A stretch of DNA of 64,000 bases, taken from NCBI RefSeq assembly GCF_002854065.1, contig NZ_CP024154.1. One strand, 5' to 3'. Within the stretch, counting starts at the first letter, position 1. Each line of letters begins with the position of its first letter. Made by a program: the position numbers. Positions 48,001 through 54,000 of this stretch are shown piece after piece. The stretch is from Escherichia coli. Lineage in GTDB: Bacteria; Pseudomonadota; Gammaproteobacteria; Enterobacterales; Enterobacteriaceae.

Positions 48001-51000
48001 CGGGGTGATTATGAAAACTAAAACATTCCGGTTCCGGAAATATAAAAAGAAAAACGTCCTGCTGCAAATGATAGTTTCCAGAAAACAAGTGATATTGTTT
48101 TTCAGAACTGGAACATTATTTTATTTCTTGCCTGTTATTGAAACATGTCCGGTTATGATCTCCGAATGGCAGGTATCAATAAAATCACTTTTCCCCGATT
48201 GTGTGTCAAAGTCAACGTGGGTGAATCTGTGTACATCCTGCCATATGGTGAAACAGACAGGACAGGTAACAGGTAGTTTACCTTCAGCTATTTTTTCGCA
48301 GCTTTCAACCAGTTGCTGCGCCTTGTTGTATCTGACGTTATAGCCATTTGTGCAAAGCGTTTCATACCCATGAGCTCCTGTAACTATATGTGTGGCGATT
48401 CTTTCGTGGACTCTCCCATTAATTAATAATTGTTCACGTGTTGTGATTGTTCTCATGCCTGTTTCTCAATTGGTCATAACAGAAAATAATCTGCATTCCT
48501 GAAAAATATCGCGCTTGTGAAATATTTAATTTTTACCCCCTTTTATGGGGGATGAAAAGCAGGCTGTCAGGCTATAACTGAACGCGGTTTCTGGATTTTG
48601 GTGCTAATGTCACATCTTTCCATTCACAGCTGCTTCCGGGAATACGCTCTTTGCGTCGTATTATACGGGAGTTCTGACACACAATAATTAAGCCATTGTC
48701 TGCCGTCTGAAATGGCATTATAGCGATGTTTATATCTTCTGTTGCAGGAATATAACTGACTTTCTTTTCACATGTATTGGTGTATATGACAACTCTGAAT
48801 TTTTCTGCGGACATTTTCAATCCTCTTTTAAACCAGAATATCCCGTGAGGGCATTCTTTGTGAAAAAGATGCCGGAAAAATTCCGGCACGGGGATTAAAC
48901 CTGTTGTGGTTCTGAGTTATCCGGAGCGGTTACCGGTTCGCTGACATCCGTAACCTTTTCCGGGGCAGGCATGACCAGTGGACGTGTCAGGGCTGTAAGT
49001 CCTTCACCGGATAAACCCACCTCTTTCAGCAGGGAGTCGATGAGCGGAGCCTGTGTACGGTAAGCCAGAGCGGCGGTTACTGCCTGTTCAGCGAGATTTC
49101 CGCCACTTATGTCGGTTGTTGCTGTTTTACCGCGGGTAACACCGCCATTCAGACCATCCACCTGAATGATTTTAATACCGTCAATGGATTTCATTGGTTC
49201 TGTGGACTTCTCTATGACGGCAGGTAATGCATCCAGCAGGGCAAGACGGAAGCGGAGGCTGGTCTGCTCATCCGAAAGCACGTTAATGGCATCGTTCAGT
49301 GCGCGCTGTGCTTCTGCTTCTGCCAGACCTTTCTGACGGGTGGCCTCCGCCAGTTCAATAATTGCTGCTGCCTGGAGTTCGGCTGCTTCTTTTTCAGCCT
49401 GTGCGCGAACCGTCAGTTCAACCGCTTTCGTTTCAGCTTCCTGAGCAGCAGCAATCAGGGCAACCTGTTTGGTACGGTCGGCCTCCGCAGTCTGGCGGGT
49501 GGTTTCCACATCCTGCTGGGCCTGTACGGCCTCAGCCAGTGCTTTACTTGCCCGGGCTTCTGCCTGTGACTGCTCTTCCGATTTTGCCGCCACGGCAATG
49601 GCTCTGGCCTGGCTGGCGATTTCGGTTGCCTGCTGTTGCTCAATTTCCCGTATGGCCACTTCCCGTTCGGCTTCGACCTGGCGGGTACGCACTATCTGCT
49701 GTCGTTCGATTTCGGCTTCCTCTATCTTACGTTCAGCCAGAATTCGCGCGGATTCTGCTTCACGACGTCGTTCAGCTTCAATAGCAGCAATACTGGCACT
49801 CTGCTCTGCCGTACGGGTTTTTACCCGTTGTTGTTGCTCCAGAGTCATGAAGGCTTCCTGCTGTTCAATCTCCAGACGTCGGGAGAGGGCATCCCGGTTT
49901 TTTTCCCTGATGGCCACTTCAACATCCTGCTCAACTTCGTTGCGTTCGCGGCGACGACGTTCTGTTTCCTGGGTCAGAAGGGTCAGGCCTTCAGCATCAA
50001 AGGCATTGTCAGGATTAAAATGTACCCGTGCAGTCTGGTTGAAACTTGTCAGCGACACACTTTCAAGCTCCAGACCGTTTTTGGATAAGTCTTCCGCAAC
50101 GGTGTTCTGCACACCCTGAACAAAGTTCTCGCGGGCATCCTGTAAATCCTGCATGCTCATTCTGGCCGCCGTGGCCCGTAGGGCATCAACAAATTTATCC
50201 TCGACCAGACTACGCAGATCTTCAGGTGTGAGCGTGCGTTGTCCCAGCGTCTGGGCTGCAGTGGATATTCCTTCGGCTGATGGTTTTACCCGAAGAAAAA
50301 AGGCAACGGCAACATCAACACGCATACGGTCGCGGGTTATGAGACTTTCAGCCGCTGCACGACTGACTTCCAGCTTCAGGGTGTTCATGTTGACGGGAAT
50401 TGTTTCGTGAAAAATGGGCATAACAATTGCACCGCCACTCATTACCACTTTTTGGCCTCCCAGACCTGTGCGGACAAAGGCCTGCTCTGCCGATGCCCGG
50501 CGGTACAGGCGGGCAAATATCAGCCCGATAACGAACAGGGTGAGGACCAGCGCTATAACGGTAAACAACCATCCCGGAAGATTAAACATAGTGAGAACCT
50601 CTGTATATGTCGGGATTAAAGAACATCCGGCCAGGGATTCAGTTCGCCCAGCCAGCGGGAACCGGAAAGACGGCAGACAATAATCACTTTGTCTCCTCGT
50701 CTGAATTCTTTCCCGGCCTCCGGCTCCAGCAACAGGTAATGAACCTGCCCGAAGCGGTCTGTGAAGCGACCTTCACAGGGGGAACCCGCCACTGCGTGAT
50801 AACCGGTGATGGTGGCCATACAGCCGATGAATGCCTCCTCGGTGAGCGCCGTTGTTTCATCACGGGGTAACCAGGGGGCAATCAGTCTGCCGGTGCGGTG
50901 TACGAGAGGACATGTCAGCAGCAGGCAAAGTGGTGCAAGGAGAATGTTCGGGGCAGGAGCCTGCAGCAGATGAATAATAAGACCCTGCAGGAGAATGCCG

Positions 51001-54000
51001 GATATACCAAAAAAACCTGCCAGCATACAGAGGACGATCAGCAGGGGGATCCGTCCGATGTTCAGCCAGTCCAGCGCCTCTCCTGTCAGACCCTCCGGTA
51101 AATCAGGTGTATCCATAGCTGAAGAGAGAGAGTGTCCGCAGAGCAGGGCGATAAGTTCAGCGATACCAGTAAGCAGAACAAAAGTCAGGGCTGCCAGATA
51201 GGGTGCGTTATACGCGGTAAGTAACGTCAGTGTCATTTTTCCTCCTGTGGCAGGTCAGTCAAACAACATTATGGCGTGAAGCTTCCGCTTCTTTAATTGT
51301 CAGAAGAAGCATATCGTCAGTCATCAGAAGACAAGGGGATGTCTGCAGGAGGGGATGATAACAACAGAAGCCTCACGCCGGAATGCGCTTTATGACAACC
51401 GGAGAGGACGGATAATCAAAAATGGGACATCCACATCAGCAAACCGCGATTTGCGAAAAAAAGTCAGCGGAGAGTGGCTGCCGTTGTGGCTGTCCCGGTA
51501 TTTCAGTGTAACAGGTGATTGCTGTGATCTATGCCCCATTCGGCTTTCGGTAAAGCTGAATGCCCCACATGAAGAATGCGTGACAGCATGTTTCTGCCGC
51601 TGCCGTTCAGGCTGCATTCGCGTCCGTGCGCGAGTATAAAACCTTCATCCCGGAATATCTCTTCAACCTCAGACGTGTTGATGGTGGCCGGATGGATTAA
51701 TGAAAATGCCACCGGTCTGATCATTCTGCCCGTGGTGGAAAAGGTGTCCCCGGTGCTGTTCAGCTGCAGGATATGACGTTTCCCGGTCTGTGCGCGGGAA
51801 AGTGTCTCACTCAGTAACTGGTCATTCCATGCGCACGTGCCAATCTGCCATCCCAGACTCCTGCACGTGGCAAGAGCCGAGCGGAAGCGGTACAGGTCGT
51901 ATAATGCTGCGTTATTGCCACTTTCCAGCAGTGATTTCAGGGTGTTTGCTACCGGTATGTCTGAATTGGTGGCCAGCAGTTTTCGCAGGGTAGTGAACTC
52001 TTCAGCCATTCCTCTGAACTCGCGCATCTGACGGGCAGTGTCAAGCCAGTTCAGCAGGTAACGCCGGCGACGCCGTTCGTTGTTTATGTTGTCCGGGGCG
52101 GTGGAGAGTGCTTCGAGCATATTCTCCAGTAACAGAATGACAGGGTTTTCCTGGGATAGAATGGTCATAAAGGCGTCCTGAAAAAATGCCCGACAGCCGC
52201 TCTCCGTACACCCTCAGGTGTCACCGGTGCCGGGCATTGTGGAAACAGAAGGGAAAAAAATCCCGGCCATAAAGGCCGGGAAAAGTCGTCAAATTAAGAC
52301 AGCAATTTTCATGTCAACGCTCCGTCATCAGATACCAGGTGCAGGAGCAGGGCGATCCTCGACTCCGGCAGAGGCTGTGCATCAAGCCGGAGGAGGTACT
52401 GGTAACGCGCTTTTGTCAGCCAGAGGGTGGAGGCAGCATCCAGCTCCTCCCTGGCTGCCGGATTGAGCGCAGGATCCGGGTACACTTTCATCAAAGACTG
52501 AACGATATCCTCCCTGACGGTTTTGATTTCACCGGCCATTTTCACGAAGTCCAGAAAGGCACTGTGACGGCGAAGGTGAGTGAAGCTGTGGCTTTCGGGG
52601 TCTGCTTTCAGGAAAAAGTAACCGGGAAACACGGCGTGTATATGTCGACGGTAACCACAGACTTTATCCGTGCGGCGGACCTTTTTCAGTATCAGGGGTG
52701 TCCAGGGAAGGACGTGTTGTTCGGAAAGCCAGGAAAAGAGATGTTCGCGGTTTTTGCCGGCAGGGATGTACTGTGCCAGATACCAGTTGCGTTGATGTAA
52801 TTCACTGATATTCAAAATCCGGAACGCTCCGCGAAAATCGATCCCCGCAGGGGGGCTTCGATGTTGTTGTGAACGGCGAATACATAAAGCATGTGTCGGA
52901 AACAGCGGCTGACCCACGTTCAGCCTGGCCTGCAGTTCTGACAGGCACATGATTTACGCACTCTTGTAAGCCTTGTGGACGGTTTCGAGGCGGGCGAAAA
53001 CCGACAACTCCTGCAAACAGGATTAATGGCTGGCAAATATATTACATGAGGATGCATATGTGGCAAGAGCGAAGATAAGCAGTTGAATAGATCGTTTTAT
53101 TTGATAAATCAGCATATTATGCTGAATTGTGTGCGGTGTCTGGTGGATTAGATCGTTTAAAAATTTTAGGCGATCTCTTCTACTAAAAATGATGAAAAAC
53201 ACAGCATAAAAGATCGTTTGCGGAATTGTTCATTTTTTTGACACAGTTCAAAAAAACGACGCTTTTTAGGTGGTTAATGAGAGGCCAGGTAAATCAGAGA
53301 AATTGTGTCGGCTTTTCAAAGCGGTGGAAAAGGGGTATATTGCGGATCGTTATGCAGTGACTTTTGGGATCCTCACGATCCGGAAAGTCAGAAAACGGCA
53401 GGATGCGCCATAAGGCATTCAGGATGTATGGCAGAAACGACGGCTGTTTGCCGGGGCCGGAAGGCTGAAAAAAGTTTCAGAAGACCATAAAGGAAAACCC
53501 CCACTATCTTTCGATGAACTTTGGCGGGCTCAAGAAAGATAGTGGGGGCCTCACAGAATACGGGATAAGTATATATGAAACCGTGTCAGAGATTCAACCC
53601 CTTGCAGTGCATTAACGCACGGCATTCTGTGCCCGCCATAAGCGACAGCTTGTGGCGGCCCTGAACCAGACCTCATTTACTGAAAGCACATACCGTCAGG
53701 TAAAGAACCCGAATCCAGTCTTCACACCCCGTGAAGATGCCGGAACGCTGAAGTTCTGCGAAAAACTGATGGAAAAGGCCGTGGGCTTCACCTCCCGTTT
53801 TGATTTTGCCGCGCATGTGGCGTATGCACGTTCGCGCGGCCTGCGCCGGCGTATGCCGCCAGTGCTGCGCCGAAGGGCGATTGATGCGCTGCTGCAGGGG
53901 CTGTGTTTCCACTATGACCCGCTGGCCAACCGCGTGCAGTGCTCCATCACCACGCTGGCCATTGAGTGCGGACTGGCGACGGAGTCTGAGGCCGGGAAAC

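What the first reader, a model, noticed from the sequence alone, without database searches (positions are those of the whole stretch)
48895..51236. NfeD-like plus flotillin-like (SPFH) gene pair embedded between the regulatory tra genes and the pil operon
This is a membrane-microdomain scaffold pair of the yqiJ/yqiK type, co-oriented with the transfer genes. It could organise membrane domains for pilus or T4SS assembly, or it could be unrelated cargo.
Basis: partly seen in the sequence, partly recalled or inferred. Interest (0 to 1): 0.4.

Follow-up and report, generated by a model that had tools for sequence, protein, structure and literature searches.

The report
Plasmid-borne flotillin and NfeD gene pair
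An IncB/O/K/Z-type conjugative plasmid carries its own intact, well-conserved copy of the bacterial yqiJ-yqiK membrane-scaffold operon just after its transfer-activator genes. About half of its sister plasmids have deleted the pair and still conjugate, so it is an optional accessory of unknown benefit, not a transfer gene.

Summary
Window 50616-51236 (-) encodes a 206-aa YqiJ-type protein with three membrane helices and an NfeD-like OB fold. Window 48895-50589 (-) encodes a 564-aa YqiK-type flotillin. The pair lies between traB/traC and pilI on an IncI-complex plasmid.

It is a diverged paralogue of the chromosomal yqiJK operon (82% and 55% aa identity to E. coli) and lacks the chromosomal promoter.

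- **Evidence for function:** a distant metagenomic lineage keeps the pair in the same slot. Synonymous divergence is similar to that of traB/traC, and dN/dS is 0.05 (yqiK) and 0.11 (yqiJ).
- **Evidence that it is dispensable:** IncI1 plasmids such as R64 have an unrelated traD there. Among about 539 PLSDB plasmids with this traC type, about 265 keep the pair. The rest lost it by at least four separate events, including a clean 2,198-bp deletion between 10-bp repeats.
- **Experimental support from the literature:** two deletion plasmids, pMS7163B and pNVI1292, conjugate in published experiments.

The best reading is a functional but optional membrane scaffold, probably expressed with the transfer regulators. 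A specific role in pilus or T4SS assembly is untested, and an essential role is excluded. The pair is already annotated in hundreds of records. Interest is modest.

The parts
50616..51236 (-). yqiJ-like gene: 206-aa inner-membrane protein with three hydrophobic helices and a C-terminal NfeD-type OB fold
50590..50615 (-). 26-nt yqiJ-yqiK spacer carrying the yqiK Shine-Dalgarno sequence (AGAGG)
   Evidence: The length is the same as in the chromosomal operon and in L009. The sequence is conserved with L009 but not with the chromosome.
48895..50589 (-). yqiK-like flotillin gene: 564 aa, with an N-terminal membrane anchor, an SPFH domain, an E/A/Q/R-rich coiled coil and a C-terminal Flot domain
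   Evidence: Pfam Band_7 and Flot. 82% aa and about 75% nt identity to chromosomal yqiK. One hydrophobic segment within residues 1-30 followed by RLYRR; coiled-coil region is 19% E and 21% A. dN/dS 0.047 against L009.
51237..51502 (-). 266-nt traC-yqiJ leader: a strongly structured RNA with a 5' hairpin plus U-run and a long 3' helix that sequesters the yqiJ Shine-Dalgarno sequence
   Evidence: MFE -95.5 kcal/mol, z -5.6, 0 of 200 shuffles fold as well. SD GGAGG pairs with 51403-51408 with P >= 0.92. The one sigma-70-like match in the spacer (51262-51235) overlaps the yqiJ ATG, so no usable promoter for yqiJ is predicted. The leader is plasmid-only and single-copy. It is absent in L009, where traC overlaps yqiJ.
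48869..48889 (-). Terminator-like hairpin 5 nt after the yqiK stop codon (GTGCCGGAA-TTT-TTCCGGCAT, then CTTTTTC)
   Evidence: Scan result. Pairing is kept in L009 through one double change and one single change. The hairpin is retained in type A deletion plasmids.
48986..48995 (.). 10-bp direct repeat GTCAGGGCTG, copy inside the 3' end of yqiK; one endpoint of the natural type A deletion
   Evidence: Junction comparison with L002 and L003.
51184..51193 (.). 10-bp direct repeat GTCAGGGCTG, copy inside the 5' end of yqiJ; the other endpoint of the 2,198-bp type A deletion, which leaves a 47-aa in-frame fusion ORF
   Evidence: The junction is present in 96 PLSDB records and in pMS7163B as ORF 160.
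51503..52168 (-). traC (transfer activator), immediately upstream of the pair
   Evidence: 37% aa identity to R64 TraC. Annotated traC in related plasmids. Required for conjugation in pMS7163B, LogFC -5.28.
52309..52950 (-). traB (NusG/RfaH-like transfer activator)
   Evidence: Pfam NusG and weak NCBIfam RfaH matches. LogFC -5.37 in pMS7163B.
52261..52281 (-). Intrinsic-terminator-like hairpin between traB and traC (8-bp stem, 7 G-C pairs, T7 tail)
48572..48814 (-). pilI, first recognisable pil gene downstream, with its own promoter-like site (48864-48835) and Shine-Dalgarno sequence
   Evidence: Pfam PilI 2.6e-31. Annotated start in L001. Promoter-like site.

Best explanation
This is a functional plasmid-resident paralogue of the enterobacterial yqiJ-yqiK operon.

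**Proteins.** YqiK is a cytoplasm-facing flotillin-type SPFH protein anchored by one N-terminal helix. By analogy with other SPFH proteins it should oligomerise through its long E/A-rich coiled coil and Flot domain into a membrane-attached cage or microdomain. YqiJ is its three-helix membrane partner, with a cytoplasmic NfeD-type OB fold that is expected to dock onto the scaffold.

**Expression.** The pair arrived without its chromosomal promoter and is wired into the transfer-regulatory module traB-traC-yqiJ-yqiK-pilI. It is most likely transcribed by read-through from traC. In one lineage it is translationally coupled to traC. In the window it sits behind a structured leader that masks the yqiJ ribosome-binding site. 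The scaffold would therefore be made when the transfer genes are switched on.

**Likely role.** The most likely role is a general and dispensable one: organising or buffering the donor inner membrane while many envelope-spanning machines (T4BSS, type IVb thin pilus) are being inserted. It would supplement the chromosomal copy, whose GFP fusion was undetectable at native level.

**Shown:** gene identity, folds, position, purifying selection, repeated natural loss, and conjugation without the pair. **Inferred:** co-transcription with traC, cage formation, the YqiJ-YqiK interaction, and any benefit to donors.
For: - **Family identity:**. PMC2636767 places YqiK in SPFH2 and YqiJ among its NfeD-type partners.
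- **No chromosomal promoter or terminator carried over:** nucleotide homology to the chromosome is confined to yqiK (query 323-1839), and the flanks are unrelated.
- **No usable sigma-70-like promoter for yqiJ in the 266-nt spacer:**
- **Structured, SD-sequestering leader:**
- **Metagenomic lineage L009:** its traC stop lies 29 nt inside yqiJ and the same five-gene module is intact, although its pilK-pilO genes are R64-like.
- **Co-divergence and constraint, window versus L009:** dS is 0.58 and 0.75 for yqiJ and yqiK, against 0.54 and 0.75 for traB and traC. dN/dS is 0.11 and 0.047 for the pair, against 0.22 and 0.21 for traB and traC.
- **Carriers hold uninterrupted ORFs:** tblastn gives 100% coverage in one piece for about 255-265 records. 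Length variants are in-frame indels in the coiled coil.
- **Low chromosomal expression:** chromosomal YqiK-GFP was undetectable at native level (PMC10434171).
- **Precedents for SPFH proteins near secretion systems:** PMC8656257 cites H. pylori HP0248 with the Cag T4SS, S. aureus FloA with the T7SS, and Agrobacterium T4SS in detergent-resistant membranes.
Against: - **Repeated loss.** About half of the plasmids with this traC type have lost the pair by independent events: type A, a 10-bp microhomology deletion (96 records); type B, a double deletion leaving 181 bp (75 records); and IS66- and IS2-associated losses.
- **Deletion plasmids still transfer.** pMS7163B (type A) was the subject of a conjugation TraDIS screen, and insertions in the remnant ORF were enriched after mating, not depleted (LogFC +2.58). 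pNVI1292 (type B) transferred on agar and in biofilm at up to 8e-2.
- **No tie to one pilus type.** IncI1 plasmids manage with an unrelated traD in this slot. In L009 the pair works next to a different pil gene set.
- **Weak precedent.** In Agrobacterium the SPFH proteins were not required for T4SS function.
- **Missing data.** No expression data for the plasmid copy were found. A terminator-like hairpin follows traC in the window, so read-through is assumed rather than shown.
Confidence: 0.45

Rival explanations
1. The pair is cargo unrelated to transfer. It changes a host trait (motility, biofilm, membrane stress tolerance, antibiotic tolerance) and simply sits in a permissive, variable slot after traC.
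For: The slot after traC holds different unrelated genes in different IncI-like backbones: R64 traD, and small hypothetical genes in pSF001, an Enterobacter plasmid and RHB47. Chromosomal yqiK mutants show altered swimming (cited). One paper proposed plasmid yqiK as a candidate for reduced biofilm (PMC7824781). Frequent loss without loss of conjugation. Purifying selection fits any useful function.
Against: The pair has no promoter of its own that the scan can see, and it overlaps traC in L009. Expression therefore looks tied to the transfer regulators. Every E. coli host already has chromosomal yqiJK (5423 of 5426 genomes), so a plain host-benefit copy seems redundant.
Confidence: 0.3
2. The pair is a dedicated assembly scaffold needed for the type IVb thin pilus or the IncI T4SS. 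This is the strong form of the first reader's idea.
For: Position between the regulators and pilI, co-orientation, and SPFH-secretion precedents.
Against: Natural deletion plasmids conjugate, and pNVI1292 did so on agar and in biofilm. The pair is not among the 35 genes required in pMS7163B because that plasmid lacks it. IncI1 plasmids lack it. It coexists with two very different pil gene sets, 25-42% aa identity for PilL-PilO.
Confidence: 0.07
3. The pair is a decaying hitchhiker with no current function.
For: Repeated deletions in successful lineages.
Against: dN/dS of 0.047 and 0.11 at dS of about 0.6-0.75 between plasmid lineages. Carriers have intact ORFs and only in-frame length variants. 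Loss is all-or-none, not by frameshift.
Confidence: 0.05
4. The pair is a defence or exclusion function, for example against pilus-specific phages or incoming plasmids, built on a membrane scaffold.
For: It is membrane-located, accessory, and patchily distributed like many defence genes.
Against: No PADLOC model matches either protein or the neighbours. The pair is an orthologue-level copy of a housekeeping-type chromosomal operon. No effector-like domain is present.
Confidence: 0.04

Closest known systems
E. coli / Enterobacteriaceae chromosomal yqiJ-yqiK operon (SPFH2-type flotillin with its NfeD-type partner)
   Same: Same gene order, same 26-nt spacing, same domain architecture. YqiK is 82% and YqiJ 55% aa identical.
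   Different: The copy here is on a conjugative plasmid downstream of traC. The chromosomal promoter and terminator are not carried over. The C-terminal tail is different and longer. The nearest chromosomal YqiJ is only 57-63% identical, so no sampled donor was found.
Bacillus subtilis yuaF-floT (NfeD2-FloT) and E. coli qmcA-ybbJ SPFH/NfeD operons
   Different: It is not a FloT orthologue (NCBIfam FloT 81.5 bits against a cut-off of 700). YqiJ belongs to its own Pfam families rather than PF01957 NfeD.
R64 (IncI1) traD, the occupant of the same slot between traC and pilI
   Same: Same position and orientation, downstream of traC and upstream of pilI. R64 traD is recalled from the older R64 genetics literature as non-essential for transfer; this rests on my own knowledge and was not re-read here.
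   Different: No sequence similarity to YqiJ or YqiK and no Pfam domain.
SPFH proteins linked to secretion systems (S. aureus FloA with the T7SS, H. pylori HP0248 with the Cag T4SS, Agrobacterium DRM-resident T4SS/T6SS)
   Same: An SPFH scaffold co-occurring with a large envelope-spanning secretion machine. Effects are quantitative, not all-or-none (PMC8656257).
   Different: Those scaffolds are chromosomal host proteins. Here the scaffold genes are carried by the mobile element itself, inside its transfer-regulatory module. No functional link has been tested.

Membership tests
Flotillin-type SPFH protein (YqiK / SPFH2) | SPFH (Band 7) domain | tested here: met
   PF01145, 1.3e-18, 68 bits against a cut-off of 23.6, residues 35-183.
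Flotillin-type SPFH protein (YqiK / SPFH2) | C-terminal flotillin domain after a long coiled coil | tested here: met
   PF15975, 1.3e-38, residues 402-526, full profile length. Residues 200-430 are 19% E, 21% A, 12% Q and 12% R.
Flotillin-type SPFH protein (YqiK / SPFH2) | N-terminal membrane anchor with the SPFH domain in the cytoplasm | tested here: met
   One hydrophobic segment within residues 1-30 followed by RLYRR. The topology itself is taken from PMC10434171 for E. coli YqiK and was not measured here.
Flotillin-type SPFH protein (YqiK / SPFH2) | Orthologue-level similarity to E. coli YqiK | tested here: met
   82% identity over 541 aa with no gaps.
Flotillin-type SPFH protein (YqiK / SPFH2) | Assembly into oligomeric cages or membrane foci | not testable with these tools
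   No solved relative was found by sequence. This needs microscopy or cryo-EM.
FloT (Bacillus flotillin equivalog) | NCBIfam NF058507 equivalog score | tested here: not met
   81.5 bits against a cut-off of 700. It is related to FloT but is not FloT.
NfeD-type SPFH partner (YqiJ) | Membrane helices followed by a C-terminal OB-fold beta-barrel of the NfeD type | tested here: met
NfeD-type SPFH partner (YqiJ) | Sequence membership of the YqiJ family | tested here: met
   PF21001 and PF07290, both above cut-off. 55% identity to E. coli YqiJ.
NfeD-type SPFH partner (YqiJ) | Match to the Pfam NfeD model (PF01957) | tested here: not met
   Not among the hits at E <= 0.01. The relationship to NfeD shows only at the fold level.
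NfeD-type SPFH partner (YqiJ) | Encoded next to, and co-oriented with, an SPFH gene | tested here: met
   26 nt upstream of yqiK on the same strand.
IncI-complex core transfer gene | Conserved across the complex and required for conjugation | tested here: not met
   Intact in about 265 of 2071 TraC-bearing PLSDB plasmids. Natural deletion plasmids conjugate.
Anti-phage defence system | Match to a known or candidate defence protein model | tested here: not met
   No PADLOC hit for either protein or for the neighbours.

The most novel reading that the evidence does not exclude
A conjugative plasmid lineage has domesticated a host flotillin/NfeD scaffold as part of its transfer regulon. When TraB/TraC switch transfer on, the plasmid also builds its own inner-membrane microdomains. 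These could lower the envelope cost of making the T4SS and thin pilus, or raise mating efficiency under particular conditions such as liquid mating, low temperature or certain hosts. The plasmid proteins might co-assemble with, or displace, the host's own YqiK. The frequent deletions would then reflect niches where this help is not worth its cost.
Probability: 0.2. Interest if true: 0.55.

Novelty: new member of a known kind. Interest (0 to 1): 0.3.

Why it matters
Bacterial flotillins still lack a clear function in Gram-negative bacteria; E. coli yqiK mutants have almost no phenotype. A copy that a conjugative plasmid has kept under strong purifying selection inside its transfer-control module offers a practical test case. 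Matched natural deletion variants also circulate in clinical and farm E. coli and Shigella, so one can ask what a flotillin/NfeD pair is good for by comparing donor fitness, mating in liquid against surfaces, and envelope stress. For plasmid biology the result is mostly negative but useful. The pair is not part of the conjugation machinery, and its presence or absence marks sublineages of IncB/O/K/Z plasmids.

Tried and rejected
- **R64 TraD as a diverged YqiJ:** rejected. BLASTP E = 17 and no shared Pfam domain.
- **Homology between the window's traC-yqiJ spacer and R64's equally long traD-pilI spacer:** rejected. Local score 22, against shuffles of 17.6 +/- 2.4 with a maximum of 28.
- **RfaH-type ops element for the NusG-like TraB:** no site with 0-1 mismatch. 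The count of 2-mismatch sites (68) was reached by only 2 of 100 shuffles (mean 53, sd 7.5), but none of the sites stands out near the pair.
- **The 266-nt spacer as a dispersed mobile element:** rejected. It is single-copy and found only on plasmids.
- **The spacer as more conserved than its flanks:** rejected after checking segment by segment. traC is the divergent outlier; the spacer is 99.6% identical, like pilL at 99.5%.
- **Known RNA family near the pair:** none.
- **Defence function:** no PADLOC hit.
- **Solved structures by sequence or profile:** none for either protein.
- **Recent donor chromosome:** none found. The best chromosomal YqiJ is 57-63% identical.
- **Literature on a function for the plasmid copy:** only annotation in a figure legend and one speculative mention.

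
Full report
**Observation.** Window 50616-51236 encodes 206 aa matching Pfam YqiJ_N (8.8e-16) and YqiJ_OB (1.3e-14). 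Window 48895-50589 encodes 564 aa matching Band_7/SPFH (1.3e-18) and Flot (1.3e-38). Upstream lie traB (NusG/RfaH-like, 52309-52950) and traC (51503-52168). Downstream lie pilI (48572-48814), a 111-aa ORF, then pilL, pilM and pilN. The replicon is IncI-complex: an IncFII-type RepA at 53652-54524, and PK-repZ at 162 bits. Close relatives in PLSDB are typed IncK2/Z or IncI-gamma/K1, MOBP, MPF_I.

**Identity of the proteins.**
- The flotillin is 82% identical over 541 residues, without gaps, to E. coli chromosomal YqiK. The partner is 55% identical to YqiJ. The 26-nt spacing between the genes is the same.
- YqiK has one N-terminal hydrophobic anchor followed by RLYRR and an E/A/Q/R-rich central region.
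- Hinderhofer et al. place YqiK in SPFH2 and YqiJ among its NfeD-type partners (PMC2636767).
- The protein is not a FloT equivalog: 81.5 bits against a cut-off of 700.

**Origin.**
- Nucleotide similarity to E. coli chromosomes is about 75% and confined to yqiK. It is seen in 5423 of 5426 complete genomes.
- The sequences upstream of yqiJ and downstream of yqiK are unrelated to the chromosomal promoter and terminator.
- The nearest chromosomal YqiJ proteins (Citrobacter, Superficieibacter, Kosakonia, Kluyvera, Salmonella) are 57-63% identical. The capture is therefore old, or from an unsampled enterobacterial donor.

**Distribution.**
- tblastn with TraC finds 2071 PLSDB records. Of these, 539 have at least 80% identity (this B/O/K/Z-type module) and 1532 have less than 60% (IncI1-type, about 37%).
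- R64 has an unrelated 188-aa traD between traC and pilI.
- Three other IncI-like backbones carry other small hypothetical genes there. The slot is variable.
- An intact flotillin gene is present in about 265 PLSDB records. The whole 3.9-kb region is covered at 80% or more in 254 records, and in 226 of 5426 complete E. coli genomes.

**Loss events.**
- **Type A.** A 2,198-bp deletion between two copies of GTCAGGGCTG (48986-48995 and 51184-51193). It fuses the first 18 codons of yqiJ in frame to the last 29 of yqiK, giving a 47-aa ORF. The junction is present in 96 records.
- **Type B.** Found in IncK2 plasmids such as pNVI1292. Two deletions (51460-49378 and 49196-48869) leave a 181-bp internal yqiK fragment. 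The junction is present in 75 records.
- **Others.** An IS66-associated truncation in non-mobilisable STEC plasmids and an IS2-associated deletion.

**Loss is compatible with transfer.**
- pMS7163B, the IncB/O/K/Z plasmid dissected by TraDIS, has the type A layout: traC ends at 13353, ORF 160 is at 13620-13763, and pilI starts at 13844.
- That plasmid conjugates, with traB and traC required (LogFC -5.4 and -5.3). Insertions in ORF 160 are enriched after mating (+2.58) (PMC10286972).
- pNVI1292 (KU312044) transfers on agar and in biofilm at up to 8e-2 (PMC5452821).

**Evidence that the pair is nevertheless functional.** A metagenomic contig (L009, ENA ERZ27268043) carries traB-traC-yqiJ-yqiK-pilI in the same order.

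| Protein | aa identity to window |
|---|---|
| TraB | 80% |
| TraC | 77% |
| YqiJ | 88% |
| YqiK | 93% |
| PilI | 71% |

The pilK-pilO genes of L009 are R64-like (65-95% to R64, but 25-42% to the window). The pair therefore travels with the regulatory module, not with a particular pilus gene set. Nei-Gojobori estimates for window versus L009:

| Gene | dS | dN/dS |
|---|---|---|
| traB | 0.54 | 0.22 |
| traC | 0.75 | 0.21 |
| yqiJ | 0.58 | 0.11 |
| yqiK | 0.75 | 0.047 |

The pair has co-diverged with its neighbours while on plasmids, and under stronger constraint than they have. Carriers have uninterrupted ORFs. Length variants (534-582 aa) are in-frame indels inside the coiled coil.

**Expression signals.**
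- In the window a 266-nt spacer separates traC from yqiJ. The scan finds no usable sigma-70-like promoter for yqiJ in it; the only match (51262-51235) overlaps the start codon.
- The spacer folds unusually well: -95.5 kcal/mol, z -5.6, 0 of 200 shuffles as good. It has a 5' hairpin plus U-run after traC, and a long helix in which the yqiJ GGAGG pairs with 51403-51408 at P >= 0.92.
- In L009 the spacer is absent and the traC stop lies 29 nt inside yqiJ, which implies co-transcription and probably translational coupling there.
- Five nucleotides after the yqiK stop is a terminator-like hairpin (48889-48869). Its pairing is kept in L009 through one double and one single substitution. A promoter-like site and a Shine-Dalgarno sequence for pilI follow.
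- A textbook terminator also separates traB from traC.
- No ops-like element was found.

**Interpretation.** The proposed role in organising membrane domains for the pilus or T4SS is untested. An essential or core role is excluded by the natural deletions and by the absence of the pair from IncI1. 'Mere junk' is excluded by the selection signal. The best-supported reading is a functional, optional SPFH/NfeD scaffold, probably expressed as the tail of the traC unit, that conditions or buffers the donor membrane. The main rival is host-trait cargo unrelated to transfer. No defence-system model matches. The literature mentions the plasmid genes only as annotation or speculation (PMC8549364, PMC7824781), and PGAP already labels them 'flotillin family protein' and 'YqiJ family / OB-fold-containing protein' in hundreds of records.

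**Verdict.** This is a real, correctly identified feature. It is a new plasmid-borne member of a known operon family, already annotated but functionally unstudied. Interest is modest.

Noticed in passing
window 51237-51502 (- strand): The 266-nt traC-yqiJ spacer is an unusually stable RNA structure (z -5.6). It has a terminator-like 5' hairpin and a long helix that sequesters the yqiJ Shine-Dalgarno sequence. It is single-copy, found only on plasmids, retained in type A deletion plasmids, absent in lineage L009, and has no Rfam match. It may be a regulatory leader for whatever lies downstream of traC.
   Followed up: partly
window 52261-52281 (- strand): A strong intrinsic-terminator-like hairpin (7 G-C pairs, T7 tail) lies between the NusG-like traB and traC. 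Together with the hairpins after traC and after yqiK, this suggests a chain of terminators that a TraB-type antiterminator could read through. No ops-like site was found.
   Followed up: partly
window 48869-48889 (- strand); L009 3893-3913: The hairpin just after the yqiK stop keeps its pairing between two diverged plasmid lineages through a compensatory A-U to G-C change and a G-U to G-C change.
   Followed up: partly
window 49377-50120, approximately (yqiK coiled-coil region): Plasmid YqiK copies vary from 534 to 582 aa through in-frame indels, all within the E/A-rich coiled coil. These include one to three copies of a 9-aa unit, AEARASKAL. A 573-aa variant is seen on 136 contigs.
   Followed up: partly
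pMS7163B ORF 160, pilI and 'pilK' (equivalent to window 48121-48995 plus 51184-51236): In the published TraDIS screen, transposon insertions in the fusion ORF, pilI and the 111-aa ORF were enriched after surface mating (LogFC +2.58, +2.95, +3.20). Disrupting or over-driving this segment may raise surface transfer.
   Followed up: no
window 48121-48456 (- strand): The 111-aa ORF that is labelled pilK in pMS7163B has no detectable similarity to R64 PilK or PilJ and no Pfam, NCBIfam or PADLOC match.
   Followed up: partly
window 51503-52168 (traC) compared with L002 4906-5568: Between the window and a type A deletion plasmid, traC is the divergent outlier (96.5% nt identity). The neighbouring pilL, pilI, leader and traB are 98.8-99.6% identical. 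This suggests mosaic exchange or faster evolution of traC.
   Followed up: no
L009 (ENA ERZ27268043 k141_149405), whole locus: This metagenomic IncI-like contig is a mosaic. It has a B/O/K/Z-type traB-traC-yqiJK-pilI module joined to R64-like pilK-pilO genes. No PLSDB record fell in the 60-80% TraC identity band where its 77% TraC would sit.
   Followed up: partly
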